This document shows positions 16,729 to 63,998 of a stretch of 64,000 nt of DNA, one piece after another. Source of the DNA: Lytechinus pictus. Taxonomy: Eukaryota. The stretch is from NCBI RefSeq assembly GCF_037042905.1, contig NC_087250.1, positions 5,768,001-5,832,000 on the forward strand, given 5' to 3'. The position numbers and the translations under genes were made by a program. Positions within the stretch are counted from its first letter, which is position 1. Each line of letters starts with the position of its first letter. The notes beneath the pieces were generated by a model that saw nothing but the letters and a program-made list of their open reading frames with translations, searched no databases and was not told the origin of the DNA.

Positions 16729-17019
16729 ATGGGCGCCAAAGGGTCAAAGAAGTCAACCATTGACAATGCTGACCCCGGAAGTGGTCTAGCAGGCAATGGT
16801 CAGCGGGACGAAACGCCTTCAGGCGATCCTAAGCCTTCGGTTGAGACCGGGAGAGATGCGGCTGTGAGCTCCACCGAAGCGGTTACAGCAACCCAAGCGG
16901 TTGAGACGTCGGGTGCGCAGGGAGCCTCAGGAGGTGCAGGCACGACTCCAGCTACGGAGTCCAGTAAGAAGGAAGCCACGACGGACATTCTTGATACAAC
17001 AGGGAGCTCAGAAAAAGCG
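16729..17019 (+). CDS. Gene A exon 1: MGAKGSKK myristoylation motif + low-complexity A/T/S/E/G tail (97 aa)
   Basis: Start context accATGG; donor GCG|gtacgt; paralogous exon at 52803. Confidence 0.9.
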
Positions 17020-20000
17020 GTACGTTAATTGCACAGCAAAAACTGTGGTGTTAACCGGTGTACATAGAGGACCACACCAGTTATTTTACACCGGTGTTAA
17101 ATTGGTGGTGTTATTTTTACACCTATAGGTGTTATTACAACACCTATGGTTGTTACATTTACACTTTTTGGTGTTATGTTCAATCTCTAGGGTGTTATTT
17201 TAACACCTCAGGGTGTGGTCCTCTATTAACACCAATTGGTGTCAGTTTTAACACAACAGTTTTTACAGTGTGTATACGCTTAAAAACGTATCGTTGCATG
17301 TGTGTGTGTGTGTGTGAGGGTGTGTGTGTGTGAGAGAGAGAGGGTGTGTGCATGAGTGTAAATATTTGTAGATTTTTAAATATTTATTTTGCCCATGATA
17401 TCTGTGATATCGGCTCCCGACATTGAGCTTAATTGAACCCATCGTCTGTAGCGAGTACCAGCTATAGCTCATAACAATAAAACTATCGTACCAGAAAATC
17501 ATTAAGATTGTACAAAAAGAAAACGAAATGATTTTTTATGGGTTTTATCATTCCTTTTGTCCCTAATTTTCAGATTTTTCCAGCTCACTGGATTGGTTTT
17601 CGAGAGATATTCGTACAGTACATTCCTGGTAAACCCTACACTCTCACCGAGTTCGGTGCCCATCTTTACTCCTCTAATGGACTGCATGGACGCCATGAGT
17701 TCAGGGCTATCGACGGGTCAGGATTGGCTAAAAAGGTTGGATTGAGGTAGGTTTGTGGCTTTGTGCTATAGCTCAGTTTTAGTTTAGTTTATTTCACTTC
17801 CATTTTCTGATAATAAACATAACAAACATATATACATATGTATGAATGTACAAAACAGAATAAGTGTCATAAGAATACTTCAATAATTAATTAACAAATT
17901 CGTAGGAAATAGATGGAATATATACAATTCTTTTGTTCCAGATACATTTTGATGATTAGACAAATAATAGATTACGGTTAGCATTTAAAAATGAAAATGA
18001 GGGACTTATTAAAAAGTGAAGCTTGTAATTGTAAGTCCCTTAGGATAAATTTATAGCAATCTTAATCGTATGTAATCAAAAGTAAAGTAAGACAATCTAG
18101 ACCATATATGAAGAAAGGCAAAATAGGTTTGAATAACAAGGAAAGTAAAGGGGGGGGGGGCAGTAACTACATAGGTTAGGGGGATAAGGGAATATTAAAA
18201 AACTGGGGGAAAAAGAAAACAAAAACAAAAAGAAACGATTATGTGTCCAGCAGAAAAGGGATAGCTAGTCTGCAAGCAAAGACTCGAATACAACACTAAC
18301 TGATATACATGTATAAAATGCCTGTTCATCTCACATTTTTGCCCAGTGCTATCTATGGATAATAATGTATTATTTAGTGTGATGTAAAATGATGTTGTAA
18401 TGACACCCAAATTGATTATTCTATTTCTGTCGTATTTAAATGGTCAATTTGTCAAGTGCATTGACTGTTGTTATTATTACCGCTATTGTTACTCATCATT
18501 GTTATTATTATTACTACTGTATTATGACAAGGGTAGGAAATACGGGGACATCCCGATAGACCGCGGGTCCGTTAGACCGCGGGTCCGATAGACCGCGGGT
18601 CCGATAGTCCGCGGGTCCGATAGACCGCGGGTCCGATAGTCCGCGGGTCCGATAGACCGCGGGTCCGATAGTCCGCGGGTCCGATAGACCGCGGGTCCGA
18701 TAGTCCGCGGGTCCGATAGACCGCGGGTCCGATAGTCCGCAGTGTGTGTAAAATTATGATCAGATATATCAAATGTCATCGAGAGGTCCAAAGGTCAAAT
18801 GATACGAGGCCATGGGGTTCTATCAGGTGCGGATCCATGGGGGGGGGGGGGGGCGAGGGGGAACTGCCTTACCCCCCCCCCCCACCCCCAGCTCAAAAAA
18901 AGAGGGGGGAAGAGGGGAAAAGGAGAGAATAAAAAAGAAAGAGCAAGATGGGAAAAGAACAGAATAGAAAAGAGAGTAAGAAGGAGAAAGGAAGAGAAGA
19001 AAAAAAAGAGAAGAAAAGGGGAAAGGAAAGACAAAGAAAATGGGAGAAGAAAAGGGGAAAGAAGAGAAAAAAAGAGAGGAGGGAAAAGGAAGAGGAGAAA
19101 AGAAAAGAAAGGAGAAAGTCAAAGGAGGAAAAAGAAGAAGAAAAAAAGAGGAAGGAAGAGAAGAATATTTAAATAGAGGAAGATGGGAAGAAAGATAAGA
19201 AAAAAGAGAGAGAGGAAGAGGGGAAAACAAGAGAAGAAAGAGAGAGAGAGAGAGGGGGAAGGGGGGGGGAGAGAAAAAAAAGATTAAAAGAAAAAAAGGG
19301 GGAAAGGAAAGAAAAAGAAAAAGGGAGAAGTAAAGGGGGAAAGAGAAAAAAGTGGAAGAGGGAAAAGAAAGAAAAGAAAAGAACGGAGTAAGGAAAAGGG
19401 GGAAAAGAAGAAGAAAAAAAGAGGAAGGAAGAGAATAATATTTAAAGAGAGAGGAAGATGGGAAAAGAGAAGGAAAAAAAAGAGAGAGTAAGGGGGGAGG
19501 AAGAGAAGAAAAACGAGAAAAGAGAGAGGAAAAGAGGAATACAAAGAGAAGAAAAAGAGAGAGAGAGAGGAGGAAAAGAAGAAAAGAAGAAAAGGGGAGA
19601 GGAAGAGGGAAAAAGAAAGAGAGAAAAAAAGAGAAAGGAAGGAATGGGAATGAGGATAAGAGAAAGAAAAAAAAGAAAGAAAAGGAGATGGGAAACGGAA
19701 GAGGGAGATGTTGACCTGGACGTCGATTTGATGGCGCCAAAATGACGTTCGAACTATGGGGCGCCGAACTGATGTTTGAACTGGGAGGGGGCGCCAAATT
19801 GATGTTCGAACTAGGGGAGCGCTAATTTGAATTTTGACCATAATGCGACAAATACATGTTTCAGAGAGGGGGAGGGAGGGCAAAGTTATATTTCACACGG
19901 GGGCGCCAAGTTTATGTTCAACCGAGGGCGCCAAATTGACCTTGAACTTAGGGGGCTTCATGCAAATTCATTTTCGACCGGGGGCGCAACATTGCTCGTA

Positions 20001-26000: not shown

Positions 26001-29000
26001 GACTCGTCAGAGGAGGCAGACTCCCCCCCCCCGTAGGTACACTAGTGGCCAGCGGTATAAGATTTATCCGAAAATAAAAATGAAGAGAAACAGGGAAGGA
26101 AATTGAGCTATTAGTTTCTGATTATACAGAGCACAAACAAAATTAAACGACACGTCTAAATGTCATGCAACCTGTTTAATGACACGGACTTCCGATTTTT
26201 AGTAGGCAACAAGACATTTGCTCCGGCGACAATTAGTCGGGGCTTTATTTTGTCTGTGATATAGAGTTAGGGTTGCGACATTTTTGTTTTGTTTTAAGAT
26301 AAGGATATGGTATAGGGTTACATCAAGGGTTGAAGTTGATCGTTCCAATAATGTGTGTAATTGGCGGCGGAGCAATTGTCATGGAATATTTTATCAAAGA
26401 AAATTTAAACAAATGTTTTTAAAGGAAACAAACATGGGTGTAGTCTGCCATTTAGTGTGTACATTAATAGCTACACTGTTAGAAAATGTATCCTTATTAA
26501 TAAAAGAAGTTCCAGCAGCAGAGTCTCGAGAACACCTGTAATCTTACCAGGTTATATTATATCATATAAAATTACAGGAAATTGGTATTTGGTGTATGGA
26601 ACCTTACAAATTTCCTTAAGTAAAGCATCCTTTTCCCCTTTCTAAATAGACCTGTTCAGTTAAATTGCAGAAAAATTCCTGTTTTATGAATTTACAGAAT
26701 GATTCTGTTTATTGCTTTCTGCAAAATCTACTTTTTTCCTTTAAAATCAGGGGGTTGACAGTGTAGTCTTACAATACACCTCAGTTTCAAATATCTATTA
26801 CAAATTACATCGTAAAAACTATGGTTACACTTCGTAATTCCGAAGGTTCGTAATTCCGAAGGTTCTTTATTCCGAAGGTTCGTAATTCCGAAACACGTAA
26901 ATTGCCTATACCTCGATGTTCGTTAATCCGAAAACGTAAAAGGGTTCGTTAATCCGAACATTTGTGGCGTTATTCCGAAGGTTCGTTATTCCGAAGGTTC
27001 GATAATCCGAAAACGAAATAAGGTTCGATGTTCCGAAGGTTCGTTAATCCGAAAACGAAATAAGGTTCGTTGTTCCGAAGGTTCGTTAATCCCAAAACGA
27101 AATAAGGTTCGTTGTTCCGAAGGTTCGTTAGTCCGAAAACGAAATAAGGTTAGTTAATCACATTCAGTTTTCGGACTAACGAACCTTCGGAATTACGAAC
27201 CTCATTTCTTTTTCGGATTAACAAACCTTCGGAATTACGAACCTCACTTCGTTTTCGGACTAACGAACCTTCGGAATTACGAACCTCATTTCGTTTTCGG
27301 ACTAACGAACCTTCGGAATAACGAACCTTCGGAATATCCGAACCTTCGGAATAACGAAGCTTCGGAATTACGAAGGTATGCGAAAACGGTTGGGTTAGAT
27401 TTTTACCAGCACGAGGGTAATTATGTGTCCAACCGATTTGGGGCAGTATTTTACCCAATGCGGGAAGCATATTGCCCAGTAAGGTTAAAAAATAAGCAGC
27501 AAATATTTTAGAACGGGAATTTTTTTTCATCACACTGGATAAATAAAAAATACCCAAAAGAAATACCCAATGTTGGTTGGACGCATAATTACCCTCATGG
27601 AGCACTTTTACCCAATGTCTTTTTAGAGTGTTGCTTTGAAGACATATTTTAACGGCCAATATTTTTTCTTCTTCTTCTTCTTTCCACATTTTGATATGAT
27701 TGATTCCAACGTGTATTTGTTATGGCCCTGGCAAGCAGGGGTGCTGCGTGTATTATTTACCATAGGCAGCACTCCTCGAAATCTGGTTGGTATGCTGAAT
27801 AAAGGACATTTCATCAGAATCACGTTCATTTTGTTACGACCCCCCCTTTTCTTGGGGGGGGGGGGAGGGGGCTTGTCAAATTTCTCCTGTACCAAAATCA
27901 CCTTCACGTCTTTATGTGTCGCGATACCCATATTATTTTTGGGGGCTTGCCAAATTTTATCCAGCACCCCCTTTAAAGAAAAAAAGTTCCCATCCATGCA
28001 GGCCCCTGATATTTGTCCACCTCATGCAAGAACTGCAGTGGTGTTAACCGGTGTACATAGAGGACCACACCAGTTATTTTACACCGGTGTTAAATTGGTG
28101 GTGTTAGTTTTACACCTACAGGTGTTATTACAACACCTATGGTTGTTATATTTACACTCTTTGGTGTTATGTTCAATCTCTAGGGTGTTATTTTAACACC
28201 TCAGGGTGTGGTCCTCTATTAACACCAATTGATGTCAGTTTTAACACCACAGTTTTTACAGTGTAGGCCCGTATTCTGAAGTCAGGTTTAACTTAGACCA
28301 TGGTCTAACTCTGTGCTAAAATTATGGGAAGCCGAAAGTGTCAAAACTTTTATTAATTCGTATGCTTCTTATGTTTACTGTGCTCTTTCCTGATTCATCG
28401 ATGGTGAAGACAATCGTCTATTTATGCTTCCTAGACAATTATGAATGATTTGAGAGCCAAATGAGCTGAAATATGATACCTCTACCGTTAGTGATTTATG
28501 TAACAATTGGCTTTCCATACTTAAACCACAACTTTGAATCTGAGTTTGAATTAAACCCGACTTCAGAATACGGGCCATAGTATTCAAACATAATTATATA
28601 GATTTACAAATTTAGATGATTTGAGAGAGACTTGATGAAAATAGTAATAATGAGAATAGTAATAATAATAATAATAATAATCATCATCATCATCATCACC
28701 ATAATCAGTATAGCGCACGTATCCACCTGTAGGTGCTCAAGGCGCTCTTATAGTGCCTCGATGATAACAAGAGTCTATTCACACTGCAAACACTCCGGTG
28801 TTGATTTAACACCTGACCGGAATCTATATATGTCCACACCAGAGAAGTATTGCAACAACACCAGTTTGGAATCATAGCCATGCTGTTTTAATTTTAATTG
28901 GTGTTGTATCTGGTAACCAAACTGGTGTAGTTTAACACTTCTCTGGTGTGGACATATATAGATTCTGGGCTGGTGTTAAATCAACACCGGTGTTTGCAGT

Positions 29001-32000
29001 GCACTGGACGGTCTATCCACCCTTACTGTGTGCATACAGAAACCGTGACGTCCTTTTAACCATCAACAACCTAACCTCGGGTTTGACCAATTCGAGTCCT
29101 CTGGCGATTCTGGAATGTTTTACGGACATTGGACCCAACATATGCTTGGTAATATTTCACAGCAAAAACTGTGGTGTTAACCGGTGTACATAGAGAACCA
29201 CACCAGTTATTTTACACCGGTGTTTAATTGGTGGTGTTAGTTTTACACCTATGATGTTATTACAACACATATGGTTGTTACATTTACAATCTTTGGTGTT
29301 ATGTTCAATCTCTAGCGTGTAATTTTAACACCTCAGGGTGTGGTCCTCTATTAACACCAATTGGTGTCAGTTTTAACACCACAGTTTTTACAGTGTTGAT
29401 TTACTTTTTAATTTCTTGAATCCTTAATCCTCAGTTTTATTATTAAAAAGGGTATTTTTTAATGAAAAACGTACATACGATCAGGCGGATCAGCTTCTCC
29501 AGGGACCCATGCCATAAAAAAAGTTGTTATGATAGCAACTCTTGCTGGAATGTCAACTACCATTACACCAATGAATATTCTGTTTCCTGATATGAAAGTT
29601 TACATTCCGTCAAGAGTTGCTATCATAACAAATATATGAAATAGGACCCAGGTGAATATAAATTGCAATAAAATAGAATTTACCCAGAAAACGAAACAAA
29701 AAATCGGGCAATTAATATTTTATGACACGCATGGCCGTATGCGTACGCAGCAGAAACTTACTTTTTTTCTGGAAACTTTCACACAATTTATCAAAGTGTC
29801 AACTAAATATCCTCTATGACAAGCTCGTACGCCTCGCTCCCTGGCTTTTGAAATTCTCCAACAATTTTACGCGTCTTGCCCCCCCCCCCCGAAAAAAAAT
29901 CTGACTACTGCCATATGATCACGCGACACTTATATATAATATTTCGTGAATGTTTTAAGCTATTATGAAACCGTGAAAACGGAATAGAGGCTAGAATTCC
30001 TGCCACATTGCATAGGTCTATGGGGAATTAAGTTTGGTACTTGCATGCAAATCATTTGAGAAACAAATTTTGAAAAAAAAATTATGTTATTCCTTGATGG
30101 ATCTCTAATTCTTTTGCTTTTACTGAATCTAAAACCACTATGAGAACGGGGTGAAATTTCCTCTCTTTTTACTGCATATCCTAATATGTTCATACAGACC
30201 ATTTTTCTTATTTTTTTTAATTTCGCCGATCCCCGTGTCAATGGAGTTACTTTCGTTTCATTTTGAATACGCATCCTGATATGTTCATACAGACCTTTAG
30301 AAACTTTTATTTTCTATTTGGCTAATCCTTGTCCCAATGGGGTTACTTTCATGTTATTTTTACTCTTCTGTCTTTGTTTCCTTTTACTCTTATTTTCATT
30401 GTCAGGTGGTTGAGCGGAACGGAAATGAAACGTGGCTGTTTGCTTTTCATCTAGACGAAGAAGGTACAACTTGACTTTACCATAGATATCAAATAAATGG
30501 ATGGGGCATCTTAATTAAAGGTCAAGTCCACTCCAGAAAAATGTTGATTTGAATAAATAGAACAAAAGTCAAACTAGCAAAAAGCTGAAAATTTCAGCAA
30601 AATCAGATGTAAAATAAGAAAGTTATGACACTTAAAAGTTTTACTTATTTTCACAAAACAGTGATATACAAAACTCAAATGAGACAGTCGATGATGTCCC
30701 TCACTCACAATTCTTTTGTTTCTGTAATTGTTTTAATTATACAATATTTGATTTTTTAACAGATTCGACAACGTGACTGAATCATATAGTATTTAACAAT
30801 GCCCATTTTACATGTTCAGGGAGGAATTAATCGTTGTTTCACTTGACAATGAAGGCAAAAATAGAAAATTCCCTATTTCATGTAATAAAATACGAAAGAA
30901 GTAGTGAGTGGATGACGTCATCTGTCCAGTCTCCTCATTTGCATACCTACCAGGATGTGCATATAACTGTTTTGTGAAATTAAGCGAAACTTTAAAATGT
31001 CATAACTTTCTTGTTTTACATCCGATTTTGATGAAATTTTCAGTGTTATGCTTGTTGGATTGTTCTCTTTCTACATGTATTCGAAACAATTTTTGTTGGG
31101 GTGGACTTGTCCTTTAAAGTGATTGTTTAACATTGGTTTGACTTTAAAAAAATCTGAGCTAGAAGGTCACACATGTCACCAGTGTCTGTGATATGTTACA
31201 AAAATGAAGCCCAGAAAAAATTGCGCTCGAAAATAATTATTTAGTGCTTCAAAAATTGAAATATAAAATGACCAGAAACACCACCTTAATTTCATCCCAT
31301 ACACTTATGTGTATTATTTAGGCGTCTAGTAGACGCCTATTTACAAAATCGGGGTTTGCCTTGTATTTTTAGCTTTTCTTTCTCAATAATGGTTGTTTTC
31401 AGGGTTTATAAGTTCTAATACATGCACTTGTACACATGTTTCATCTTGGTTTAAGAATTTTTAAATCGGCTGCTCACAAAGTTAAACAATACCTTTAACC
31501 ATTATACCGTTGGCGTTAATGGGCAGCTGGCACCGTCCGCAGTGCGTGCGTTTGTCAAATAGCCCCATCTGAATCCGGGGGGCGTGCACCTAATTTAAAC
31601 GAGCGCGTTGAGCTCTATCCAGCTTGTTGATATCGATGTAATTCACTTCTTAATATTTTCATGAACTACAGGGTAACTTTATAAAAAAAGAAGTTATGTT
31701 TAAAGAAGTCATTTTTAAAAGAAAATATGGAGGATTATAATCAGGAGGTGTTGTAAAAGTTTTCTCTATCAGCAAAAAAAAAATTCTTTGTCCGTGCGTA
31801 ATGCCGATCACTGAACATCTCCTTACACTGTAAATTAGAAACCGTCTTATTTCCAAATAATAAATCTCTTTTTTGCGTGATGCCTTTTGTCATTTTTTCA
31901 GCCTTTATGATCTCGTGTAAATGCAGTTTAGGTGGTGTTTTAATATCAATACAATATATTCATGAATCGTGTAATTCTATTTTTGTTGGTATTTTCATTC

Positions 32001-35000
32001 AGATATGAATTTTGATCAAGTCTGGAGAGAGCCGTAGCAAGATAGATGACCAAGACTGGGACCTATCTTGCTACGGCCAGATCACTTGATCATGACGCCC
32101 CCCCCCCCACCTTTAAGAAAGTTCTTTGACATTTTAAGCCCGTTGTTTAAACCGTATATCTATCAACTATTGTTTAAAGTTTCAAAAAAGTGGTTTCAAA
32201 GCGTATAAACAATTTCAAAGAGTTTAATCAATTGCGGACAAAATTAAACATCTTGTTAGAGTGATGGGCTTTACACAATATGCTTATAATTCATTCTAAA
32301 TGGCGTTTTTTTCAGTGAGTGTTATAGAAGATGATTTTTTTTACTTCTCAGGCAATCGACCGATCGTCAAGGAGCTCTTCACCCATAAGTTCGACCATCA
32401 CGTCAGGACGTTTACTTTTCTCGTGATAATTCCTCCCGAGGCAGCGTTCGATGTGGCTGCTCAGTATGCGTACGAATCTTCCGCACCCGTCCAGATAATA
32501 CTCAAAGAAGATGACCATTACATGGAGATCGATACCGAGAAGGCGACCTTTGTGCCAGCATCGCGTAAGTTTTATCATATAATAATAATAACAATTTTAT
32601 ATACCGCAAAATCGCAAAATTGCCTCTAAGCGGTTAAGAGAAAGGAAAATGAAGTATAAAGGAAATAGAAATACTTTGCACAACAAAATGTATCAAAACT
32701 AATATTACAATTTACAACTTTGTCACCAGATCATGAATAAAGAAATACCATGAAGTTTTGAATAATTGAATTTAATTGATTAACTAATAAATGATAATAT
32801 TAATAATGATGTGACTTATAAAGCGCCAAATCCACTCTGTGGAGTGCTCAAGGTGCATAAAAAGCTAGGAGTTAAATAAAAAAAGTGTTTAGAAGATTTT
32901 TTTAAGTTTCAAAAGAGGTACATCTTTTTATGTCTTCAGGAAGGCTATTCCACAAAGTGGGGCATGCAAAAACAAATGATCTTCCCCCAAGTTTTCGAAA
33001 TCTTAGGAATAACAAGGAAGCCAGAAGTGGATAAGGGCAAACACCTGAATTTATTTTCATATTTCACAACAAAGCATATAATGACATAATACAAAAAATA
33101 CATTTGATACATACAGAATACAGAAGATGATGAAAATGGCAGTTAATAAAAGAGAAATATGAAGGAACCTGCATAAAAAGCGGAGCTTGTAGTGTCTGCA
33201 GGTTCCTTGAAGTTCAAGGCCACCCCAGAAAAAAGTTGATTTGAATGAAGAGAGAAAAATCAAACATGAATAACGATCAAAACTTTAGCAAATCCGGATG
33301 TAAAATAAAAAAAAGTTATATGACATTTAAAAGTTACTTCTGTATCACGTGGAGTCGGTGTATTATATAAGGTCAGATCATTTATTCCTCGCCAAACATT
33401 ATTTACTGTATATAATTCTATCATTCTATCAGGTGAATGGGTACCCGGCAGGAGTAATTCCTTGCATGCACTGAGCGCCGGTGATGGTAGCTCGAGCTAA
33501 AGCCGGGGTAATAATAGCAGCGCTTTGTATCCTCTGGCAAAAAGCGCTTTATAAATCCAACTATTATTATTATTATTATTATCATACTGCCTTATATTTC
33601 ATATTGTAATGTTGTATGGGCTTGTCAAAAAACAAAAATCAACTCTTTATTTCTTCTTCACAAAAAAGCTGTTCGTATCTGTACAAACTCAGACTATCGA
33701 GCTCATTCAAACCCATTGTTCCATAAGGTGAGAACCCTAACCATACATGACATTCATTACCTTCATGACCTTTAAATTGCTCTTTTCATGTACAGATTCC
33801 AAATCCGCGAACTTCCAGACAACCTTTTAAAAATGTTCCGTTTCAATACATCTATTCATAATTACCCAACCCGAACCTTTACAAATATTCATTTAGAAAA
33901 CCCAAGAACAGCTCTTTCCCATAGATCTATTCGACATACTGGCCCTGAAATTTGGAATTCTCTTTCTATCTATATTCGTTCGTGCCAAACGAAAAATTCC
34001 TTTAAGAGGCAAGTTAAAAATTTCCTTCTTTCAAAATATGAAACACAAGGCTGATAATAATGCCATGTATATTGTATTACCATTACATGGTTACATAATA
34101 TACCACCACACATATGTAATTCCTTTTTTGCTATATTATTTGTGATTGTTATACAAACAAAATACCTCACCAACGAGTCTTCGTTATCAAAACATGATGT
34201 CTTGTATTTCATATATTGTTAGAACTCTCTTCATGTTTCTCTCTTTCTATTCAGTTCTTTCTTTCCCACTCTGTTTTTTCACCCTCACTCTATCTCTCTT
34301 GCTCTTCTTTTAACTCTTAGTTGATGTTCGCATCATTTAATGTATTATTTTAGCCAATGTATAATTATCTATCTTTGCATTTTTTTTTCTTGGAACATCA
34401 TTCTGAAGCTCATATATGACTGATTATACTAATATGAATATTATGTAATGTTGAAAATGATGTATATATATATATGAATAAAATCAAATCATATCAATCA
34501 AATCAAATCAAAACAGTTCTATGCTCAACTCAGTGATATGCAAATGAGAGAGTAGATGATGTCACTCACTATTTCTTTTGTTTTTTTATTGTTTGAATAA
34601 TACAATATTTCAATTTTTACGAATTCGACAATTAGGACCCCCTTGCTTGAACCACAAAATTTTAAAATAATGGAATTACAAGTGATCAGGGAGGAATGAA
34701 ACACTGTGAAGACAGAATGAACACACTGTGGATACACTCTGAACACACTGCGAACACAATCTGAACACACTGTGAACACACTGTAAACACAATCTAAACA
34801 CACTATGAATACTCTTTGAACACACTGTAAACACAATCTAAACACACTATGAATACTCTTTGAACACATTCTGAACACACTGTGAACACAATCTGAACAC
34901 ACTGTAAACACAATCTGAACACACTCTGAACACACTGTAAACACAATCTGAACACACTCTGAACACACTGTAAACACAATCTGAACACACTCTGAACACA

Positions 35001-38000
35001 CTGTAAACACACTGTAAACACAATCTAAACACACTATGAATACTCTTTGAAAACACTGTGAATACACTGTAAACACAATCGGAACACACTATGAATACTC
35101 TTTGAACACACTGTAAACACAATCTGAACACACCATGAATACTCTTTGAACACACGGTGAACATACTGTAAACACAATCTGAACACACTATGAATACTCT
35201 TTGAACACACTGTAAACACAATCTGAACACACTATGAATACTCTTTGAACACACGGTGAACACACTGTAAATACAATCTGAACACACTCTGAATACTCTT
35301 TGAACACACTGTGAACACACTGTAAACACACTATGAATTCTCTTTGAACACACTGTAAACACAATCTAAACACACTATGAATACTCTTTGAACACACTGT
35401 GAACACACTGTAAACACAATCTGAACACACTATGAATACTATTTGAACACACGGTGAACACAATCTGAACACACTATGAATACTCTTTGAACACACGGTG
35501 AACACACTGTAAACACAATCTGAACACACTATGAATACTCTTTGAACACACGGTGAACACAATCTGAACACACTATGAATACTCTTTGAACACACGGTGA
35601 ACACACTGTAAACACAATCTGAACACACTATGAATACTCTTTGAACACACGGTGAACACACTGTAAATACAATCTGAACACACTCTGAATACTCTTTGAA
35701 CACACTGTAAACACACTATGAATACTCTTTGAACACACGGTGAACACACTGTAAACACAATCTGAACACACTATGAATACTCTTTGAACACACTGTGAAC
35801 ACACTGTAAACACAATCCGAACACACTATGAATACTCTTTGAACACACTGTAAACACAATTTGAACACACTATGAATATTCTTTGAACACACTCTGAACA
35901 CACTGTAAACACAATCTGAACACACTATGAATACTCTTTGAACACACGGTGAACACACTGTAAACACAATCTGAACACACTATGAATACTCTTTGAACAC
36001 ACTGTAAACACAATCTGAACACACTATGAATACTCTTTGAACACACGGTGAACACACTGTAAACACAATCTGAACACACTATGAATACTCTTTGAACACA
36101 CTGTGAACACACTGTAAACACAATCTAAACACACTATGAATACTCTTTGAACACACTGTGAACACACTGTAAACACAATCTAAACACACTATGAATACTC
36201 TTTGAACACACGGTGAACACACTGTAAACACAATCTGAACACACTATGAATACTCTTTGAACACACTGTGAACACACTGTAAACACAATCTAAACACACT
36301 ATGAATACTCTTTGAACACACTGTAAACACAATCTAAACACACTATGAATACTCTTTGAACACATTCTGAACACACTGTGAACACAATCTGAACAAACTG
36401 TAAACACAATCTGAACACACTCTGAACACACTGTAAACACAATCTGAACACACTCTGAACACACTGTAAACACACTGTAAACACACTGTAAACACAATCT
36501 AAACACACTATGAATACTCTTTGAAAACACTGTGAATACACTGTAAACACAATCTGAACACACTATGAATACTCTTTGAACACACTGTAAACACAATCTG
36601 AACACACCATGAATACTCTTTGAACACACGGTGAACACACTGTAAACACAATCTAAACACACTATGAATACTCTTTGAACACACGGTGAGCACACTGTAA
36701 ACACAATCTGAACACACTATGAATACTCTTTGAACACACTCTGAACACACTGTAAACACAATCTAAACACACTTTGAATACTCTTTGAACACACTATGAA
36801 TACTCTTTGAACACAATGTGAACATTGTGAATACACTGTATTCTTTCCAGTAGTTATTAATCTAACGATGTCACGATGGGCAATCGACAACCCTTGAAAG
36901 TTGTGTTTCCAATATACATAGCGTATGTTTATCCATTTTTATATCCCTAGCTTTTGCAGAACGTGTACCAAGGACCTTTAAAAGCACATTTGGTTTTGCA
37001 TTTTTAAGAACCGTTTGTAATAAAAATACAGAGAATGTTTTATTTCATTTTATTTCACAGACAAATATTAGACCAAAGTGATGTCTATGTTGTATTGGGT
37101 AGCGGAAAACAATTCTTCCCCTTTGGAATTTTCTTCCATTTGATTATTTTTATTTGGTTTTTTTTTGTGTGTAATAATGAGCAGAATTCAACCTGCATGA
37201 ATGCCCAATTCTTCCTAAATTCCGTTAATTTTCATTACCCTTTCTGTATTATTGAAAACCGGGCGGACTTGGCCTGCGTATTAGTGTAAAGATGGTAAGG
37301 GGGGGGGGGGTCGGACCATCTCCCCTCCCACTGAATTAAATTTTACAAAGAAAAGGGAGAAAGAAATAAAATTAAAGCGAAAGATTGAAATATATCATTT
37401 TCCGAATATTATGTCAAGATCTATTACATTTATATATTAAAAAGGTCACAATTAATGTTATTTTCTGTTTAGAACTATTGCTGCATGTACCATATCTGGC
37501 CCTCCCAAAAATGAATTCATTGCAAACATTTGTGTTAGGGAGCCCGGGCCTACAAATGAAACAGCAACATTCTATATATATATATATTTATATATTGTTT
37601 TTGCATTGTATCAGAAACTTTAACTTTGAACTTCTACGAAAGAATTGACAAAAGGAATGAGGTCGGCGAAGGGGGCATCCCCGTTGCCATTTCGACATCG
37701 ACGCCGTACCACAACGTCGAGAGGGACGCCGAGTCTGGAAGCTACTGCCACGACCCAATGTGCGTCGAAGGCGTCTCCGAAGGTCCTTTGGGTGTCGTTG
37801 TAAGTTTTACCTCATGTGAGCTCATCAGAGCACACTCTAAAAACAAATCAGTCAAAAATGACTAGGTAATAGGGTCAGCTGGGTGCAACTGTTATTCTAG
37901 TCATATTTGACTATTTTATAGTCGTATTTTACTAGAACATAGTTATTTTGGACTATTTTCAAGTCGTATTTTACTAGAACATAGTTATTTCTGACTAGAA

Positions 38001-41000: not shown

Positions 41001-43760
41001 CAAAATGCTTCCCGCGCGTAAAATACTACCCCAAATTAGAAGGACACATGATTACCCTCGTGCTGGTTATTTTTTTTTACAGGGTACTAGTTGTTCTTTC
41101 AGGATTTACTGACTCGTTTTCTTGACTTACTTACTCGTTATCGTGACTTACTAGCTCGGTCTCTCGACTTGCTAACTTGATATCCCGCTTTACTTTATTA
41201 TCAAAGGTTTTTCCATACTGGATGACGGAACGGGGCACTGTGATTCCACAGAATAACATGTTCTTCCTCAGTAGTCTTGCTCCAACAGGTGATGCTGTGT
41301 TCGAGGCTGCAAACACTCAAGAAGGTATACCGAATTTATGGATGATGATGGTGGTGGTGGTGGTCATGATAATGATGATGATGGTGATGATGATGGTGGT
41401 GATGATGATTTTGATGAAGGTGACGATGATGGTGGTGGTGGTCATGATGATGATGATGAAGATGATGGTGGAGATGATGATGGTGGTGATGATGATGGCT
41501 GATGGTGATGATGATGGAGATGATGATGATGATGATGATGATGGAGATGATGATGATGGTGATGGAGATTATTGAGATGTTGATGATGATGGGGATGGAG
41601 ATGATGATTATGGAAGTGGTGATGATAATGATGATGATGACGGTCGGGTAATGATAATGATGATTATGGTGGTGGTGATAATGGTGGCGGATATGACAGC
41701 GATGACGATGGTGATGATGATGGTGTTGATGCTGATGACATCGATAATGGTGACATTATTCTCATCAACATTCAAATCGAAGCATGATATGCATGGGGAT
41801 AAGATAAATAATTTAAAAAAAGCTTACGATGTTAATGATGGTAAAGGTGAATCCAAACTTGAACGTATACGTTCAAGTTTGGATTCACCTTTATATACGT
41901 TGGATTCACCTTTATATACGTATACGTTCAAGTTTGGATTCATCATTATATATAATGATGTGTAAAAATGAGTAATAGAAAGTGCAAAATCATGAAATTT
42001 CAGCGGAAAACCGATAATTCTGATGGTCACTGACACAAAATGTATATGTGGGACAATATATCATTATGACTGGAAAAATAATACCCGACATTTTATGGAA
42101 TTCTGTGCTTAGTTTGCTAATTTCTCAGTAATTACGCATTTTTTCCAAGAGTCTTTTGCATGTACACTCTAAAAACACTGAGTAAAACTTTACCCAATAT
42201 TGGGTAGAAAAGGAACATGCATGTTTGCTGGATATCTTTTTACCCCATATTGGGCTATTCAACGCAACATTGCGTTAAAGGGGAAGTCCACCCTGAAGAA
42301 AACTTTTTTGGAAAAATAGCAGAAAAAATAGTAAAAAATATTGGTGAAGGTTTGACGAAAATCCGTTAAAGAATAAGAAAGTTATTATAGTTCAAAGTTT
42401 TGGATTTGTGACGTCATAAACGAGCAGCTGCCCCATGTGTTATGTAATATAAAATGCATGAATTTCAAATTTTATATAGTTGCTGTTGACTTAATTTTGT
42501 TTTCTATTCATGATCGGGTGTGAAATGATTTGTCTATTGATATACAAAAGGTACCGTAAAAACCATTTTCAATTTTCTGAGAAAATGACATTTCATTGAT
42601 TTTTTACCATTCGCTATGTAGGAATGCTGCTCGCATATGACGTCACAAATCAAATAATTGAAATTCTAATAACTTTTTAATAATTTGATGAATTTTTCTC
42701 AAACCTTCGGCAATATCTTTTATTATTTTTTCTGCTATTTTTACAATAAACTTTTTGTCAGGGTGAACTTCCCCTTTAAATTGACAACATATTGGGTATA
42801 TCTTCGTACCCAACCATCATGCATGTTCCCATTTTACCCAATATATTGGGTGAACCTTTTTTAGAGTGTACATTTTTGTTAATTTATTATATACAAACCC
42901 TCTGGTGGCCATTTTATTGGATTCTGTTCGAACTCATTTTGAGGTCGTAACCCCCCCCCCCCGGGGGGGGGGGGGGGGGGGGCACTTACATTGACGAGTG
43001 GATACCATGCGCGACCAAAAAACACGTAAAAAGGATGTCCTTTTCACCGGGCACGTTACGTACGTAATGTGATAAGGGTGTCAAAAACACAAAAATAATG
43101 AAAAAAGGGTGTCTATTTCGCTAGGAAAATTACGTGTTTAGGGTCGAATTTGCGGGAATGATAAAACAAAATTAAAATGTTTTATAAAGGATGTCCATTT
43201 TGCGCCAACACTTCGTGTTTAGAGTCCGATTTGCGCGAGGTGTAGAAGGTGGGGTCGTACTAAACCAAATAAGCTAAAGCCGACGACCGAAGGACCCGTA
43301 ACAATAAAACAGTCCTGTACTTGTTTAGGGGTTATTTTCAGGGAATATTTGCCAAGAGTATCGTTTTGTTTCCAATACTTGTTAAGGGTGGGGTTTCGCA
43401 CGCCAATACCTGTTAAGGGGTGCATTTTCAGAATATGGAAATTACGTGTTTATTAGGGTGCTTTTCGAGACCCCATGGTCGCGCATGGTATCCACTCGTG
43501 AATGGAAGTGCCCCCCCCCCCGGGTCGTAACCACAACTGGTATTTGTATTTTGTACATCACCTTCCGTTTCCTCTCAACAGAACTCTACATGGTATCATC
43601 AGTCTATAACCAAGACCCAGGTGTGTTGATTGCTAGCCTTGACAAATCCAGCGCCGACTTTAGAGTAATTCAGTTAGATTCGGGAAGTCAGACGTCACTC
43701 AAGGACATTTTCTCGAGGCTTGCCGATCCAGAAAAACGACCGGAATATCCTAGTCTGTAG
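16729..43760 (+). CDS. Gene A (8 exons, 1326 nt CDS, 441 aa): myristoylated PDZ-like + interleukin-1-like beta-trefoil protein
   Basis: join(16729-17019,17574-17746,29040-29148,30406-30463,32352-32564,37615-37799,41207-41324,43582-43760). All introns are GT-AG, intron phases 0,2,0,1,1,0,1 are mutually consistent, and there is no internal stop. PDZ-like and IL-1-like motifs run continuously across the junctions. Confidence 0.85.
17574..17746 (+). CDS. Gene A exon 2: first half of PDZ-like domain (IFPAHW...EFGAHL...AIDGSGLAKKVGL-R)
   Basis: ttttcag acceptor and AG|gtaggt donor (phase 2); conserved in the paralogue at 63835. Confidence 0.9.
18824..23616. mobile_element. Non-autonomous hAT-like element (4.8 kb) containing a ~0.8-kb polypurine tract
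   Basis: 8-bp TSD GGTTCTAT (18816-18823, 23617-23624); 14-bp TIR CAGGYGCGGATCCA. Confidence 0.85.
23767..24453. mobile_element. TA-flanked TIR MITE, itself interrupted at ~23836-24172
   Basis: TA|CGGAGCCTTGAAAATGCCATC ... GATGGCATTTTAGAGGCTCCG|TA. Confidence 0.75.
24743..25057. repeat. 63-bp minisatellite, 5 copies
   Basis: atttccacatgagtgtgc... recurs at 24743, 24806, 24869, 24932 and 24995. Confidence 0.9.
26823..27377. mobile_element. Foldback MITE with ~15-bp internal repeats (ttccgaaggttcgtaa)
   Basis: Left-arm repeats are inverted in the right arm (ttacgaaccttcggaa). Confidence 0.8.
28782..29001. mobile_element. CAC...GTG MITE with CA TSD
   Basis: CA|CACTGCAAACAC ... GTGTTTGCAGTG|CA. 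Confidence 0.8.
29040..29148 (+). CDS. Gene A exon 3: PDZ-like core (R-NRDVLLTINNLTSGLTNSSPLAILECFTDIGPNICL)
   Basis: atacag acceptor in phase 2 completes GLR-NRDVLLTIN, matching the PDZ GLxxGDxILxIN pattern; donor TTG|gtaata. Confidence 0.85.
30406..30463 (+). CDS. Gene A exon 4 (VVERNGNETWLFAFHLDEE-G)
   Basis: Strong pyrimidine tract + gtcag; phase 0 in, phase 1 out (AAG|gtacaa). ICL-VVER resembles the last PDZ strand. The exon is too short for the ORF track. Confidence 0.8.
30519..31494. mobile_element. Two abutting Kolobok-like MITEs (30519-31113 and 31118-31494) sharing one TTAA
   Basis: TTAA|AGGTCAAGTCCAC...GTGGACTTGTCCT|TTAA|AGTGATTG...CAATACCT|TTAA. The second element is the reverse complement of 43790-44163. 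Confidence 0.8.
32352..32564 (+). CDS. Gene A exon 5: linker and first strands of the IL-1-like domain (...AAFDVAAQYAYESSAPVQIILKEDDHYMEIDTEKATFVPAS)
   Basis: ttctcag acceptor and C|gtaagt donor; phase 1-1; coding-like GC content inside an AT-rich intron. Confidence 0.88.
33430..33583 (+). mobile_element. SINE 3' portion with L2-like tail
   Basis: caggtgaatgggtacccggc core, agcgcttt...aagcgctttataaat stem-loop and (ATT)n tail. Confidence 0.65.
33590..34512 (+). mobile_element. LINE (L2/Crack-like) 3' fragment
   Basis: SHRSIRHTGPEIWNSL...NSFKRQVKNFLLSKY, then AATAAA and an (AATCA)n tail. Confidence 0.75.
34700..36853. repeat. 2.1-kb satellite of 11-bp monomers in 44/55-bp higher-order units
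   Basis: Units gaacacactgt-aaacacaatct-gaacacactat-gaatactcttt, with or without a fifth 11-mer. Confidence 0.95.
37615..37799 (+). CDS. Gene A exon 6: IL-1-like middle strands (Q-TLTLNFYE...GGIPVAIS...PMCVEGVSEGPLGVV)
   Basis: gtatcag acceptor in phase 1 and GTT|gtaagt donor in phase 0. IPVAIS resembles IL-1beta IPVALG. Confidence 0.88.
37833..38085. mobile_element. CAC...GTG MITE with CA TSD
   Basis: CA|CACTCTAAAAAC ... GTTTTAAGAGTG|CA. Confidence 0.8.
38882..40362. mobile_element. Non-autonomous hAT-like element inserted in a degenerate ~21-bp array (ttactaactcgttctctcgac, ~38620-41175)
   Basis: 8-bp TSD CCCGAGTT; imperfect TIR CAACCGCGTAGCCAGG / CCTGGCTAGGCGCCTG. Confidence 0.8.
41207..41324 (+). 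CDS. Gene A exon 7 (VFPYWMTERGTVIPQNNMFFLSSLAPTGDAVFEAANTQE-E)
   Basis: tcaaag acceptor in phase 0 and AAG|gtatac donor in phase 1. MFF...VFEAA resembles IL-1 FVF...FESA. Confidence 0.82.
41340..41750. repeat. (GAT/GGT)n microsatellite at the start of intron 7
   Basis: Direct reading of the sequence. Confidence 0.9.
42165..42868. mobile_element. CAC...GTG MITE (TA TSD) with a nested Kolobok-like element at 42279-42775
   Basis: TA|CACTCTAAAAA...TTTTTAGAGTG|TA; inner TTAA|AGGGGAAGTCCACCCTGA...TCAGGGTGAACTTCCCCT|TTAA. Confidence 0.8.
42953..43524. mobile_element. TIR element with CCCGGG ends
   Basis: gcacttacattgacgagtggataccatgcgcgacca is inverted at 43475-43511; TCGTAACC is duplicated on both flanks. 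Confidence 0.75.
43582..43760 (+). CDS. Gene A exon 8, terminal (LYMVSSVYNQDPGVLIASLDKSSADFRVIQL...EYPSL*)
   Basis: ctcaacag acceptor in phase 1; TAG at 43758-43760. LYMVSS and ADFRV resemble IL-1 WYIST and TDFTM. Confidence 0.85.
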
Positions 43761-52384: not shown

Positions 52385-52802
52385 AAATTGACAAACATAT
52401 ACAAATTAATGAATAAATGAAATGAAATAAATATGTATATATACATATATATTAATAATAATTATCATTATTATTGTAACCATAAGAATAAAATAAATGC
52501 ATAAAAATACAATAAAACCCAGTACCGCCCCCTACATCCCAGTGCCATGGGGGTAAATATGTCGCATCGAATGACAACATGAACTACGGAGGATATGAAA
52601 GTGGAAGTATCCGTGCGCCCTAAATCATATATCAAATAAAACATCCTGTTTGAAAGCTAGACATGAAACGTACGGAGCTGAGGCAATAAGTGCAACTGCA
52701 TTGTGTGCCAACTCTCTTAGTCAACAACATAACCATTATAAGTCTTTGTGTCTCAATCGAAACAGTTTGTACATTTCGATAGAGTTTGTGTTGAAGAAGA
52801 CT

Positions 52803-53087
52803 ATGGGCGCCAAAGGGTCAAAGAAGTCAAACAGGGCAACCGTTGACAATGCTGACCCAGGAAGTGGTTTAGCAGGCAATGGCCAGCTCGACGAAACGCC
52901 TTCAGGCGATGCTAAACCTTCGGTAGAGACCAGGAAAGATGCGACTGTGAGCTCCACCGAAGCGGTTACAGCTACCCAAGCCGCTGAGACGTCGGGTGCG
53001 CAGGGAGCCTTGGGAGATGCAGGCACGGCTCCAGCGGAGTTATCTACGACGGACATTCTTGATACATCAGAGGGCTCAAAAAAAGCG
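52803..53087 (+). CDS. Gene B (tandem paralogue of gene A) exon 1, 95 aa
   Basis: MGAKGSKKSNRATVDNADPGSG...DILDTSEGSKKA; same donor position (GCG|gtaggt); indels relative to gene A preserve the frame. Confidence 0.88.
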
Positions 53088-59888: not shown

Positions 59889-60431
59889 CTATAATCGTAT
59901 CTGGTCTTTTACCTGTATGAATTATAAGTCTTTATAATGTAACCTCTCGAATTTACCGGCGTAATAACAATGCAGCGTTTAATGACCTACACCTTCACCG
60001 TTTCACTTGAATGAACATAAGTCACGCAAATTATATATATCACACCAGAAACCGAACGCACGACACTACACACCTCCGAGTCAGCCCGAAAGACCCCAAA
60101 GACCCAGGTAAAATTACCCCACATTAGATTCGTCATGTTTGTACATCATATGTGTATGTATGTGTATATTTACATATGTATGTATATATATATGTAGATG
60201 TTTATGTGCATGTATTCTGTATATGTATGTATTTGCATATATTGTATACGTACGACGTCATTGTTACATATGCTATTACACCTGCATTATATGTCCATAT
60301 GTTCATCTGTTCCTCCCTCTGTACCATTGATTATGTTACATATGTTATTATAACAGTATTATATGTCCATATGTCCATCTGTTCCTCCCTTTGTAATATT
60401 GATTATGTTTCGTTCGCTTTTGTTTATAGAA

Positions 60432-63834: not shown

Positions 63835-63998
63835 TTTTTTCCTGCTCACTGGATGGGTTTTCGAGAGATATTCGTACAGTACATCCCATGTAAACCCTAC
63901 ACCCTCACCGAGTTCGGTGCTCATCTTTACTCCTCTAATGGACGCCATGAGTTCAGGGCTATTGACGGGTCAGGACTGGCTAGAAAGGTTGGATTGAG
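63835..63998 (+). CDS. Gene B exon 2 (FFPAHWMGFREIFVQYIPCKPYTLTEFGAHLYSSNGRHEFRAIDGSGLARKVGL-R); gene continues beyond the window
   Basis: ttttcag acceptor and AG|gt donor at the window end; 9 nt shorter than gene A exon 2, in frame. Confidence 0.88.

What the first reader, a model, noticed from the sequence alone, without database searches (positions are those of the whole stretch)
16729..43760. Hidden 8-exon gene encoding a PDZ-like + interleukin-1-like beta-trefoil protein in an apparently invertebrate genome
Seen: eight small exons spread over 27 kb splice in phase into a 441-aa ORF. By-eye comparison with human IL-1beta gives colinear matches: APVQIILK~APVRSLNCTLR, LTLNFYE~VVFSMSFV, GIPVAIS~KIPVALG, GPLGVV~PTLQLE, NMFFL~RFVFN, VFEAANTQEELYMVSS~EFESAQFPNWYISTS, SADFRVIQL~ITDFTMQFV. 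The upstream region (EFGAHL...GSGLAKKVGLRNRDVLLTINN...ICLVVER) follows the PDZ pattern. There is no signal peptide, as in IL-1 cytokines. Established: IL-1 ligands are classically described from vertebrates, and teleost nIL-1Fm carries a PDZ-like N-terminal region. I recall recent reports of PDZ-bearing ancient IL-1-like proteins outside vertebrates but cannot verify them, so novelty needs checking. Inference: this is a divergent leaderless IL-1-family cytokine.
Basis: partly seen in the sequence, partly recalled or inferred. Interest (0 to 1): 0.95.

Follow-up and report, generated by a model that had tools for sequence, protein, structure and literature searches.

The report
Unlisted sea urchin PDZ–IL-1-like gene
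This is a real eight-exon sea urchin gene for a protein with a PDZ domain and an interleukin-1-like beta-trefoil; it belongs to the recently published "IL-1anc" family but sits in a branch that the paper did not list.

Summary
Eight GT..AG exons (16729-43760, + strand) give a 441-aa ORF. The Lytechinus variegatus orthologue is a 442-aa NCBI model. Spliced contigs from two studies confirm junctions 3-4 and 4-5.

AlphaFold models match IL-18, IL-1alpha and IL-1beta ahead of all other trefoils:
- Foldseek: 42 of the 43 listed rows are IL-1 family.

The gene is homologous to LpicIL-1.4, a listed IL-1anc member (E 5e-10). All six LpicIL-1.4 introns coincide with introns of this gene in position and phase.

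The PDZ + IL-1-trefoil family is already in print (PMC13736523). This gene, its tandem twin, two further L. pictus copies and the S. purpuratus and L. variegatus relatives are not in that paper's tables. The verdict is therefore a new member of a known kind.

Two points are new here: the unlisted sea urchin clade, and a conserved Met-Gly...Ser-Lys-Lys start that fits N-myristoylation. Cytokine function is inferred, not shown.

The parts
16729..17019 (+). Exon 1 (291 nt, ends in phase 0). The ATG sits in an ACCATGG context. It encodes the Met-Gly-Ala-Lys-Gly-Ser-Lys-Lys start and a Gly/Ala/Thr/Ser-rich region of about 97 aa, modelled as disordered.
   Evidence: pLDDT is 24-30 over residues 1-100 of the orthologue model.
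17574..17746 (+). Exon 2 (173 nt, ends in phase 2). First half of the PDZ domain, including the x-Phe-Gly-Ala loop.
   Evidence: The intron after this exon is shared with LpicIL-1.4.
29040..29148 (+). Exon 3 (109 nt, ends in phase 0). Second half of the PDZ domain.
   Evidence: Contig pieces start at 29040, and the joint to 30406 is seen in X1 and X15.
30406..30463 (+). Exon 4 (58 nt, ends in phase 1). Last PDZ strand and the first arm of a beta-hairpin linker.
   Evidence: Both flanking joints are seen in contigs of X1 and X15; the 3' joint is also seen in one raw read of X20.
32352..32564 (+). Exon 5 (213 nt, ends in phase 1). Linker and trefoil strands 1-3.
37615..37799 (+). Exon 6 (185 nt, ends in phase 0). 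Trefoil strands 4-7, with an acidic low-confidence loop.
41207..41324 (+). Exon 7 (118 nt, ends in phase 1). Trefoil strands 8-9, including the Phe-Glu-Ala counterpart of the IL-1 F/L-E-S motif.
43582..43760 (+). Exon 8 (179 nt, stop codon included). Trefoil strands 10-12 and a short C-terminal helix.
52803..53087 (+). Exon 1 of the tandem second copy, with the same Met-Gly...Ser-Lys-Lys start. The rest of that gene runs beyond the window.
63835..63998 (+). Exon 2 of the tandem second copy.

Best explanation
The locus is an intact, transcribed gene of a Lytechinus sea urchin (L. pictus by protein identity). It encodes a leaderless protein of the IL-1anc type, with three parts: (1) a disordered N-terminus of about 100 aa that begins with a conserved N-myristoylation-type motif followed by lysines; (2) a divergent PDZ domain; (3) a C-terminal beta-trefoil (about 12 strands) whose closest solved structures are IL-18 and IL-1.

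It belongs to a sea-urchin-specific clade that is sister to the published LpicIL-1.3/1.4 genes and is absent from the published lists.

Shown here: gene structure, splicing of exons 3-5, homology, and predicted fold.

Inferred: by analogy with the S. purpuratus and lamprey IL-1anc proteins studied in PMC13736523, the protein is made in the cytosol as a pro-form. It may be held at the inner face of membranes by myristate plus the lysines and/or by PDZ contacts. It would reach the outside by a non-classical route (cell damage, pores or proteolysis), and the trefoil would then act as a ligand for Ig-TIR receptors.

I put membership of the family at about 0.85-0.9 and cytokine function at about 0.5.
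For: Gene: eight GT..AG exons giving a 441-aa ORF. The orthologue is 442 aa at 88% identity. Spliced contigs come from two studies plus one raw RNA read. The exon-6 DNA search of the own genome found no intron-less copy; only the two tandem loci carry the coding part.

Homology to a listed IL-1anc member:
- phmmer with P0002 hits P0012 = LOC129260728 = LpicIL-1.4 at E 5e-10 over residues 106-395 in a library of 1.84 billion proteins.
- 6 of 6 LpicIL-1.4 introns coincide with introns 2-7 of this gene in phase (2,0,1,1,0,1). Five fall in the same alignment column and one lies within 2 columns.

Fold:
- The AF2 model of P0001, made without templates from a 19-row urchin-only alignment, has pTM 0.71 and core pLDDT 85-93.
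- Foldseek against PDB: 42 of 43 listed rows (ranks 1-49) are IL-18, IL-1beta, IL-1alpha, IL-36gamma or an IL-1beta/IL-1Ra chimera. The best is 4xft_B (E 1.2e-5, TM 0.75 by target). FGF13 first appears at rank 50.
- A second model, of full-length L. variegatus P0002, again gives IL-18, IL-1alpha and IL-1beta at ranks 1-28.

PDZ.

No signal peptide.

The Phe-Glu-Ala motif lies in modelled strand 9, where the paper places the F/L-E-S motif.

Myristoylation-type start: Met-Gly, a permitted residue at position 3, Ser at 6 and Lys at 7. It is present in 9 of the 12 database models that have sequence upstream of the PDZ, in both window copies, and across S. purpuratus and Lytechinus, although the rest of the N-terminus is poorly conserved.
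Against: - No sequence method links the trefoil to vertebrate IL-1. Pfam IL1 (PF00340) matched 0 of 20 family members at E <= 10, and no IL-1 chain was among the 60 best of 105 profile matches to PDB sequences.
- The language-model search returned generic trefoil clusters (AbfB, Inhibitor_I66, ricin-type, CDtoxinA) at scores of 0.89-0.91, a range that chance also reaches. No IL-1 cluster was returned.
- The motif reads F-E-A, not F/L-E-S.
- Two true RNA-seq runs gave almost no depth on exons 3-5, so expression in those samples is low.
- Between the tandem copies the trefoil has dN/dS 0.82, against 0.21 for the PDZ. That may reflect relaxed constraint rather than immune-type diversification.
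- The only Asp in the PDZ-trefoil linker hairpin (F-H-L-D) is Asn in the S. purpuratus relatives, so no conserved caspase site is evident.
- A cytosolic-face lipid anchor does not by itself explain release.
- Nothing functional was tested.
Confidence: 0.7

Rival explanations
1. A purely intracellular, membrane-associated PDZ-trefoil scaffold. The trefoil would bind an intracellular partner (a channel tail, actin, a lipid or a glycan), as FGF-homologous factors, fascin or hisactophilin do, and would never act as a secreted cytokine. It would share descent with the IL-1anc genes but not the function.
Against: The nearest structures are consistently the secreted IL-1 cytokines, which are also leaderless. 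PDZ-bearing relatives in S. purpuratus and lamprey are induced by immune challenge, and one is cut by a caspase (PMC13736523, abstract and sections 7, 11). Human pro-IL-1alpha is itself myristoylated and reaches the cell surface (PMC10494239, passages).
Confidence: 0.25
2. A generic or convergent beta-trefoil fused to a PDZ domain, with no common descent with vertebrate IL-1. The fold resemblance would be no more than trefoil geometry.
Against: IL-1 family chains fill every top rank in three searches made on two independent models. They also align over more residues: 134-139, against 113-129 for the other trefoils. The PDZ + trefoil architecture, the leaderless N-terminus and the strand-9 motif are the family's published hallmarks. 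By the paper's account, the intron phases of the trefoil exons match the family pattern; for LpicIL-1.4 I checked this myself.
Confidence: 0.1
3. Not a working gene: either a chance chain of open exons or a decaying duplicate.
For: The L. pictus database models are split and partly chimeric (LOC129263514 reads through into the next copy; LOC129263515 starts inside exon 5). Depth in two RNA-seq runs is low.
Against: - All eight exons are open with canonical splice sites.
- The full-length orthologue is 88% identical in L. variegatus, and relatives exist in S. purpuratus.
- Spliced contigs were found in two studies.
- The PDZ has dN/dS 0.21.
- The fold is predicted with confidence.
Confidence: 0.02

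Closest known systems
IL-1anc family (Fontenla-Iglesias et al., Nat Ecol Evol 2026, PMC13736523; preprint PMC12338702), in particular LpicIL-1.3/1.4 (LOC129260727/8) and LvarIL-1.3/1.4
   Same: The architecture is the same: an N-terminal PDZ plus a C-terminal IL-1-like trefoil, with no signal peptide. Sequence homology is direct (E 5e-10). All six introns of LpicIL-1.4 are shared in position and phase. The strand-9 motif is in the same place. Both are tandemly duplicated in sea urchins.
   Different: - Identity to LpicIL-1.4 is only 21-27%, and the two form separate clades with 100/100 support.
- This gene has an extra first coding exon of about 97 aa with a myristoylation-type start.
- It is not in the paper's Table S2. 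A likely reason is that the paper's screen began with Pfam PDZ HMM hits, and this PDZ scores below threshold (16.3 bits against a cut-off of 27).
- No experiments exist for this clade.
Vertebrate IL-18 / IL-1alpha / IL-1beta (Pfam IL1, PF00340)
   Different: There is no detectable sequence similarity. The pro-region holds a PDZ domain. No conserved caspase site is evident. Receptor use is unknown.
Teleost nIL-1F (PDZ-bearing 'novel IL-1', lumpfish; cited in PMC13736523 as ref. 40, PMC7144542)
   Same: I saw this only as a passage in PMC13736523 and in the search listing.
   Different: It is a vertebrate gene. It was not compared here by sequence or structure.
Membrane-bound, myristoylated human pro-IL-1alpha
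   Same: An IL-1 family precursor that carries myristate in its N-terminal pro-piece and is displayed at membranes (PMC10494239, passages).
   Different: In IL-1alpha the lipid sits on internal lysines 82 and 83. Here the motif is the classical co-translational Met-Gly N-terminus, and lipidation is only predicted.

Membership tests
IL-1anc (PDZ + IL-1 trefoil; PMC13736523) | N-terminal PDZ domain | tested here: met
   A family profile hits solved PDZ domains (Shank3 E 2.7e-4; Shank1, NHERF3, Scribble, DLG and Tiam1 follow). Pfam PDZ_6, PDZ_2 and PDZ match 9, 7 and 6 of 20 members; the one score checked against its cut-off (P0002, PDZ_6: 16.3 bits vs 27) is below it. The AF2 element order is beta-beta-beta-alpha-beta-alpha-beta with pLDDT 84-93.
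IL-1anc (PDZ + IL-1 trefoil; PMC13736523) | C-terminal 12-stranded beta-trefoil whose nearest structures are IL-1 family members | tested here: met
IL-1anc (PDZ + IL-1 trefoil; PMC13736523) | F/L-E-S motif in beta-strand 9 | tested here: inconclusive
   The sequence reads F-E-A in modelled strand 9 (residues 166-170 of P0001). That is a near match; the paper allows a 'related sequence'. No residue-level structural alignment was printed to confirm equivalence.
IL-1anc (PDZ + IL-1 trefoil; PMC13736523) | No signal peptide | tested here: met
   The highest 15-residue hydropathy mean in the first 100 aa is 1.04, at the PDZ start, and the N-terminus is Gly/Ala/Thr/Ser-rich. No dedicated predictor was run.
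IL-1anc (PDZ + IL-1 trefoil; PMC13736523) | Sequence homology and shared gene structure with accepted members | tested here: met
   E 5e-10 to LpicIL-1.4. The profile search also recovers LvarIL-1.4 and LpicIL-1.3. 6 of 6 introns are shared in position and phase.
IL-1anc (PDZ + IL-1 trefoil; PMC13736523) | Immune induction, cytoplasmic or nuclear pro-form, caspase processing | not testable with these tools
   These were shown in the paper only for S. purpuratus IL-1.1-1.5 and the lamprey genes. The linker Asp of this gene is not conserved.
IL-1 superfamily by sequence (Pfam IL1, PF00340) | Match to the Pfam IL1 model | tested here: not met
   0 of 20 family members match at E <= 10. The paper reports the same for invertebrate IL-1anc in general.
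IL-1 superfamily by sequence (Pfam IL1, PF00340) | Intron positions and phases shared with vertebrate IL-1 genes | not tested
   The paper states that two central trefoil introns are conserved, but its Extended Data Fig. 7 is a picture (legend only). No vertebrate gene was examined here. The trefoil introns of this gene have phases 1, 0, 1.
IL-1 superfamily by sequence (Pfam IL1, PF00340) | Binding to an Ig-domain IL-1 receptor | not testable with these tools
   No receptor candidate was examined.
N-myristoylated proteins | Met-Gly start with a permitted residue at position 3, a small residue (Ser) at 6, no Pro at 7, and often lysines at 7-8 | tested here: met
   A regular-expression test of the N-termini was positive for P0002, P0005, P0007, P0008, P0010, P0017, P0019, P0028 and P0030. 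That is 9 of the 12 models that have sequence upstream of the PDZ. It was negative for P0006/P0016 and P0009. Both window copies carry the motif. The start codon context is ACCATGG, and there is no upstream in-frame ATG after the preceding stop.
N-myristoylated proteins | Lipid actually attached | not testable with these tools
   This needs metabolic labelling or mass spectrometry.

The most novel reading that the evidence does not exclude
This clade may be a lipid-anchored form of an IL-1-like pro-cytokine. Co-translational N-myristoylation plus a lysine patch would tether the precursor to the inner face of membranes, and the PDZ domain would position it there. This could be a recurrent feature of IL-1anc proteins that has gone unremarked.

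Support from the paper's own Table S2: ORFs of the amphioxus genes begin Met-Gly-Lys-x-Ser-Ser-Lys followed by a cysteine cluster. Several sea star genes begin Met-Gly-Cys-Cys, Met-Gly-Ser-Cys or Met-Gly-Gly-Ile-Phe-Ser-Lys (9 ORF cells start MGC, MGS, MGK or MGG). The paper's main text does not contain 'myristoyl', 'palmitoyl', 'acylat' or 'lipidat'.

If true, membrane tethering by acylation would be an old route by which leaderless IL-1 proteins reach or signal from the cell surface, and human IL-1alpha lysine myristoylation would be a later echo of it.
Probability: 0.35. Interest if true: 0.65.

Novelty: new member of a known kind. Interest (0 to 1): 0.42.

Why it matters
The main claim, an invertebrate IL-1 with a PDZ domain, was published in 2025-26, so this locus does not open that question. 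It adds three things.

1. The sea urchin repertoire is larger than listed. This genome has at least four more genes on one chromosome: two at 5.78-5.87 Mb and two at 4.69-4.77 Mb of contig C6. At least three L. variegatus and five S. purpuratus gene models belong to the same clade. Screens that start from Pfam PDZ hits miss them.

2. The clade carries a conserved myristoylation-type start. This gives a cheap, testable idea about how leaderless IL-1-like proteins are held at membranes and released.

3. The PDZ is conserved while the trefoil diverges fast between the tandem copies. That is the pattern expected of an immune ligand, and it is worth testing with population data.

Tried and rejected
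- Sequence links to IL-1. Pfam on 4 proteins, then on 20 family members, at E <= 10 gave no IL1 family. The profile search against PDB sequences gave only PDZ chains and a few chance rows among the 60 shown of 105.
- Reach beyond sea urchins. A single-sequence search of 1.84 billion representatives found 12 proteins. A profile search of the 5.8-billion set found 14 (only the 8000 candidates sharing the most words were scored). All that carry a name are sea urchin proteins. No sea star, hemichordate or amphioxus protein was reached, so the link to those IL-1anc genes rests on architecture, fold and by-eye motifs.
- ESM Atlas features gave generic trefoil clusters at 0.89-0.91 with few shared features, and no IL-1 cluster. 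The scores are in the range that chance reaches, so I treat this as a lead only.
- RNA holders. No listed holder of exon 6 is on record as RNA. Raw RNA runs X19 and X20 (about 6 in 100 of each read) gave next to no depth on exons 3-5.
- Stretch chosen for the lay. I laid only 28900-32700, to keep clear of the 2.1-kb minisatellite and the (GAT)n array. Junctions 5-6, 6-7 and 7-8 were therefore not tested on reads.
- A profile search of the own genome was not accepted for this genome.
- Caspase site. The linker F-H-L-D looked like a candidate, but the Asp is Asn in the S. purpuratus relatives, so I make no claim.
- A PDZ match by fold search was not obtained.
- Earlier notes of this scan: nothing near the locus or under the key words.
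- Literature. A full-text search for six LOC identifiers of this clade found 0 papers. bioRxiv supplements are closed, so the preprint's tables were not seen.

Full report
**Where the window lies.** The window is G000:C6:5768001-5832000 of an 812-Mb, 368-contig genome. The exon-6 peptide matches 'uncharacterized protein LOC129263515 [Lytechinus pictus]' at 98% identity and L. variegatus LOC121417411 at 88%. A gene on contig C20 translates letter for letter to L. pictus XP_054754655.2. The organism is therefore a Lytechinus sea urchin, most likely L. pictus.

**The observation.** tblastn of the orthologue P0002 (442 aa) places eight colinear pieces on the + strand between 16729 and 43745. A script then tried every GT donor and AG acceptor within 15 nt of those pieces, kept open frames and scored them against P0002.

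- The best model is 16729-17019, 17574-17746, 29040-29148, 30406-30463, 32352-32564, 37615-37799, 41207-41324 and 43582-43760.
- All introns are GT..AG, the phases are 0,2,0,1,1,0,1, and the product is 441 aa.
- The ATG sits in ACCATGG, with no upstream in-frame ATG after the preceding stop.

**Support for the junctions.**

- Database models tile them. LOC129263514 (P0005) holds exons 1-5 and then reads into the 5' region of the next copy (52716-53058). LOC129263515 (P0001) holds exons 5-8. The L. variegatus model holds all eight.
- I laid two contig sets and two raw RNA runs on 28900-32700. Contigs of X1 and X15 (two studies) cover exons and dispersed repeats but not unique intron sequence. 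They carry the joints 29147/8->30405/6 and 30461/3->32350/2 with GT..AG ends.
- An 839-nt contig of X15 spans exons 3-5 and runs on at both sides. One raw read of X20 carries the second joint.
- The raw RNA runs otherwise show almost no depth on these exons, so expression there is low.
- The exon-6 DNA search of the genome found the coding part only at the two tandem loci. The spliced contigs are therefore not a processed genomic copy.

**Domains by sequence.**

- Pfam gives only a sub-threshold PDZ_6 hit for P0002 (E 0.008; 16.3 bits against a cut-off of 27).
- Across 20 family members, PDZ_6, PDZ_2 and PDZ match 9, 7 and 6 members. The IL1 model matches none at E <= 10.
- A family profile hits solved PDZ domains (Shank3 E 2.7e-4, then Shank1, NHERF3, Scribble, DLG, Tiam1). 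No IL-1 chain is among the 60 rows shown of 105.

**Fold.**

- AlphaFold2 on P0001 (exons 5-8) used a 19-row alignment of sea urchin proteins only and no templates. It gave pTM 0.71, pLDDT 85-93 over most of residues 40-210, and thirteen strand segments in the order expected of a trefoil.
- Foldseek against PDB: 42 of the 43 rows listed (ranks 1-49) are IL-18, IL-1beta, IL-1alpha, IL-36gamma or an IL-1beta/IL-1Ra chimera. The best is 4xft_B (E 1.2e-5, TM 0.75 by target). FGF13 appears at rank 50.
- A second model, of full-length P0002 (pTM 0.66), has residues 1-108 disordered, a PDZ-type element order at 111-199, a beta-hairpin at 203-228 and the trefoil at 252-417. It again returns IL-18, IL-1alpha and IL-1beta at ranks 1-28.
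- The domain is a beta-trefoil beyond reasonable doubt. IL-1 family members are its nearest solved structures, although the margin over other trefoils is modest in one of the searches.
- The language-model search gave only generic trefoil clusters at chance-prone scores.

[quoted passage not shown] I read the outline, sections 7, 11 and 20, search passages, and supplementary file 4.

- The paper defines IL-1anc as an N-terminal PDZ plus a C-terminal IL-1 trefoil. The proteins are leaderless, have an F/L-E-S motif in strand 9, and occur across Eumetazoa.
- It reports experiments in S. purpuratus and lamprey on induction, localisation and caspase cleavage of SpurIL-1.3.
- Its Table S2 lists five L. 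pictus genes (LOC129278821, 129278820, 129260727, 129260728, 129279149), five L. variegatus genes and five S. purpuratus genes.
- None of the identifiers of this locus or its relatives occurs in the seven supplementary files held. These are LOC129263514/15/11, LOC121417411/426, and LOC100892317, 100889353, 105437773 and 105445920.
- A library-wide search for six of them found no paper.
- The paper's screen began with HMMER hits to Pfam PDZ models, which this PDZ fails. The paper itself warns that divergent members may have been missed.

**Kinship with listed members.**

- phmmer with P0002 against 1.84 billion representatives found 12 proteins. Ten carry a sea urchin name or belong to a cluster with sea-urchin-named members; the other two are unnamed Logan/ENA records (P0009, P0013). 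Among the named ones is P0012 = LOC129260728 = LpicIL-1.4 (E 5e-10, residues 106-395 on 8-320).
- The profile search adds LvarIL-1.4 and LpicIL-1.3.
- I rebuilt the LpicIL-1.4 gene from contig C20. Its translation is identical to XP_054754655.2. All six of its introns fall in the same or adjacent alignment columns, with the same phases (2,0,1,1,0,1), as introns 2-7 of the window gene. The window gene has one extra 5' coding exon.
- A maximum-likelihood tree of 15 rows separates the window clade (11 rows) from the IL-1.3/1.4 group (4 rows) with 100/100 support. The first 125 residues of P0004 were dropped before building it, and the root is at the midpoint. The window gene groups with L. variegatus LOC121417411 and the tandem copy at 99/100.

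**Family size.**

- Protein searches of the own genome show four genes of this clade on contig C6. They are the window gene, a tandem copy at 5820803-5866152, and two more at about 4.69-4.71 and 4.72-4.77 Mb on the other strand.
- The tandem copy has the same eight exons and phases and gives 413 aa. It is 83.5% identical to the window gene and stops earlier, so it loses the C-terminal helix but not the trefoil.
- Between the two copies, dN/dS is 0.21 for the PDZ and linker, 0.82 for the trefoil and 0.50 for the N-terminus (Nei-Gojobori).

**The N-terminus.**

- Both window copies begin Met-Gly-Ala-Lys-Gly-Ser-Lys-Lys.
- The S. purpuratus relatives begin Met-Gly-Gly-Lys-Ala-Ser-Lys-Lys. The second L. 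variegatus group begins Met-Gly-Ile-His-Ala-Ser-Lys-Gly.
- 9 of the 12 database models with sequence upstream of the PDZ fit the N-myristoylation pattern. P0006/P0016 and P0009 do not.
- The rest of this region is poorly conserved and disordered, so the conserved start looks functional. This is an inference.
- Among the published IL-1anc ORFs, nine begin MGC, MGS, MGK or MGG. They include the three amphioxus genes, which have a cysteine cluster, and several sea star genes.
- The paper's main text never mentions myristoylation, palmitoylation or acylation.
- Human pro-IL-1alpha is myristoylated on Lys82 and Lys83, and this affects its display on the cell surface (PMC10494239, passages).
- By eye, the sea star ORFs also share the D-F-P-S-W-M and F-x-L-E-S..Y-L motifs with this clade.

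**Verdict.** The general discovery is already in print, so this is a new member of a known kind. More precisely, it is an unlisted sea urchin clade with a possible lipid anchor. Cytokine function, lipidation, processing and release are inferred and untested.

Noticed in passing
window 52803-53087 and 63835-63998; continues at C6:5851279-5866152 (L012, L013): A tandem second copy with the same eight exons and intron phases. It gives 413 aa, 83.5% identical to the window gene, and has an earlier stop that removes the C-terminal helix. The NCBI model for it (LOC129263511, P0004) lacks exons 1-2 and instead starts with a GIY-YIG piece that looks retroelement-derived.
   Followed up: yes
window 57147-59888 (- strand), flanked by 56377-56712 (-) and 60128-60463 (+): An open 913-aa frame with a reverse transcriptase domain (E 3e-11) and a GIY-YIG domain (22.0 bits against a cut-off of 22.6). 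This is the make-up of a Penelope-like retroelement. It lies in intron 1 of the second copy and is bracketed by an inverted pair of stretches of about 336 nt whose translations are identical.
   Followed up: partly
window 52716-53058: The NCBI model LOC129263514 (P0005) joins exon 5 of the window gene to the 5' region and first exon of the next copy, translating its leader in frame. This is either a read-through transcript or a model artefact.
   Followed up: partly
window 34697-36839: A 2.1-kb minisatellite in intron 5 (11-nt unit x 195; higher-order 99-nt unit x 20.7). It creates long spurious open frames on the minus strand.
   Followed up: no
window 41341-41738: A (GAT)n array of about 132 units that begins 17 nt after the donor of exon 7. 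It lies in the same reading frame run as exon 7, which makes the stop-to-stop frame look much longer than the exon.
   Followed up: no
window 18919-19688: A 770-nt purine-rich (A/G) low-complexity block in intron 2, with strong GC and AT skew.
   Followed up: no
window 17107-17216, 28100-28209, 29157-29400, 30424-31566: Dispersed repeats in the introns. Some have a 21-nt internal period and a shared 'GGTGTTATTTTAACACC' unit. They reach very high summed depth in RNA-derived contigs and raw RNA reads, while the neighbouring unique intron sequence has none. They are probably abundant transcribed mobile elements.
   Followed up: no
G000:C6:4689269-4766049 (- strand): Two more genes of the same clade lie about 1.05 Mb upstream on the same contig. 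They are closest to L. variegatus LOC121417426/LOC121416645, and one first exon is 86% identical to that protein.
   Followed up: partly
window gene against second copy, codons 246-417: The trefoil evolves about four times faster than the PDZ at non-synonymous sites (dN/dS 0.82 against 0.21) between the tandem copies. The cause could be diversifying selection or relaxed constraint; this was not resolved.
   Followed up: partly
S. purpuratus LOC105445138 (P0020) and LOC115920486 (P0011): These are S. purpuratus counterparts of the published LpicIL-1.3/1.4 group, but they are not among the five S. purpuratus genes in the paper's Table S2.
   Followed up: partly
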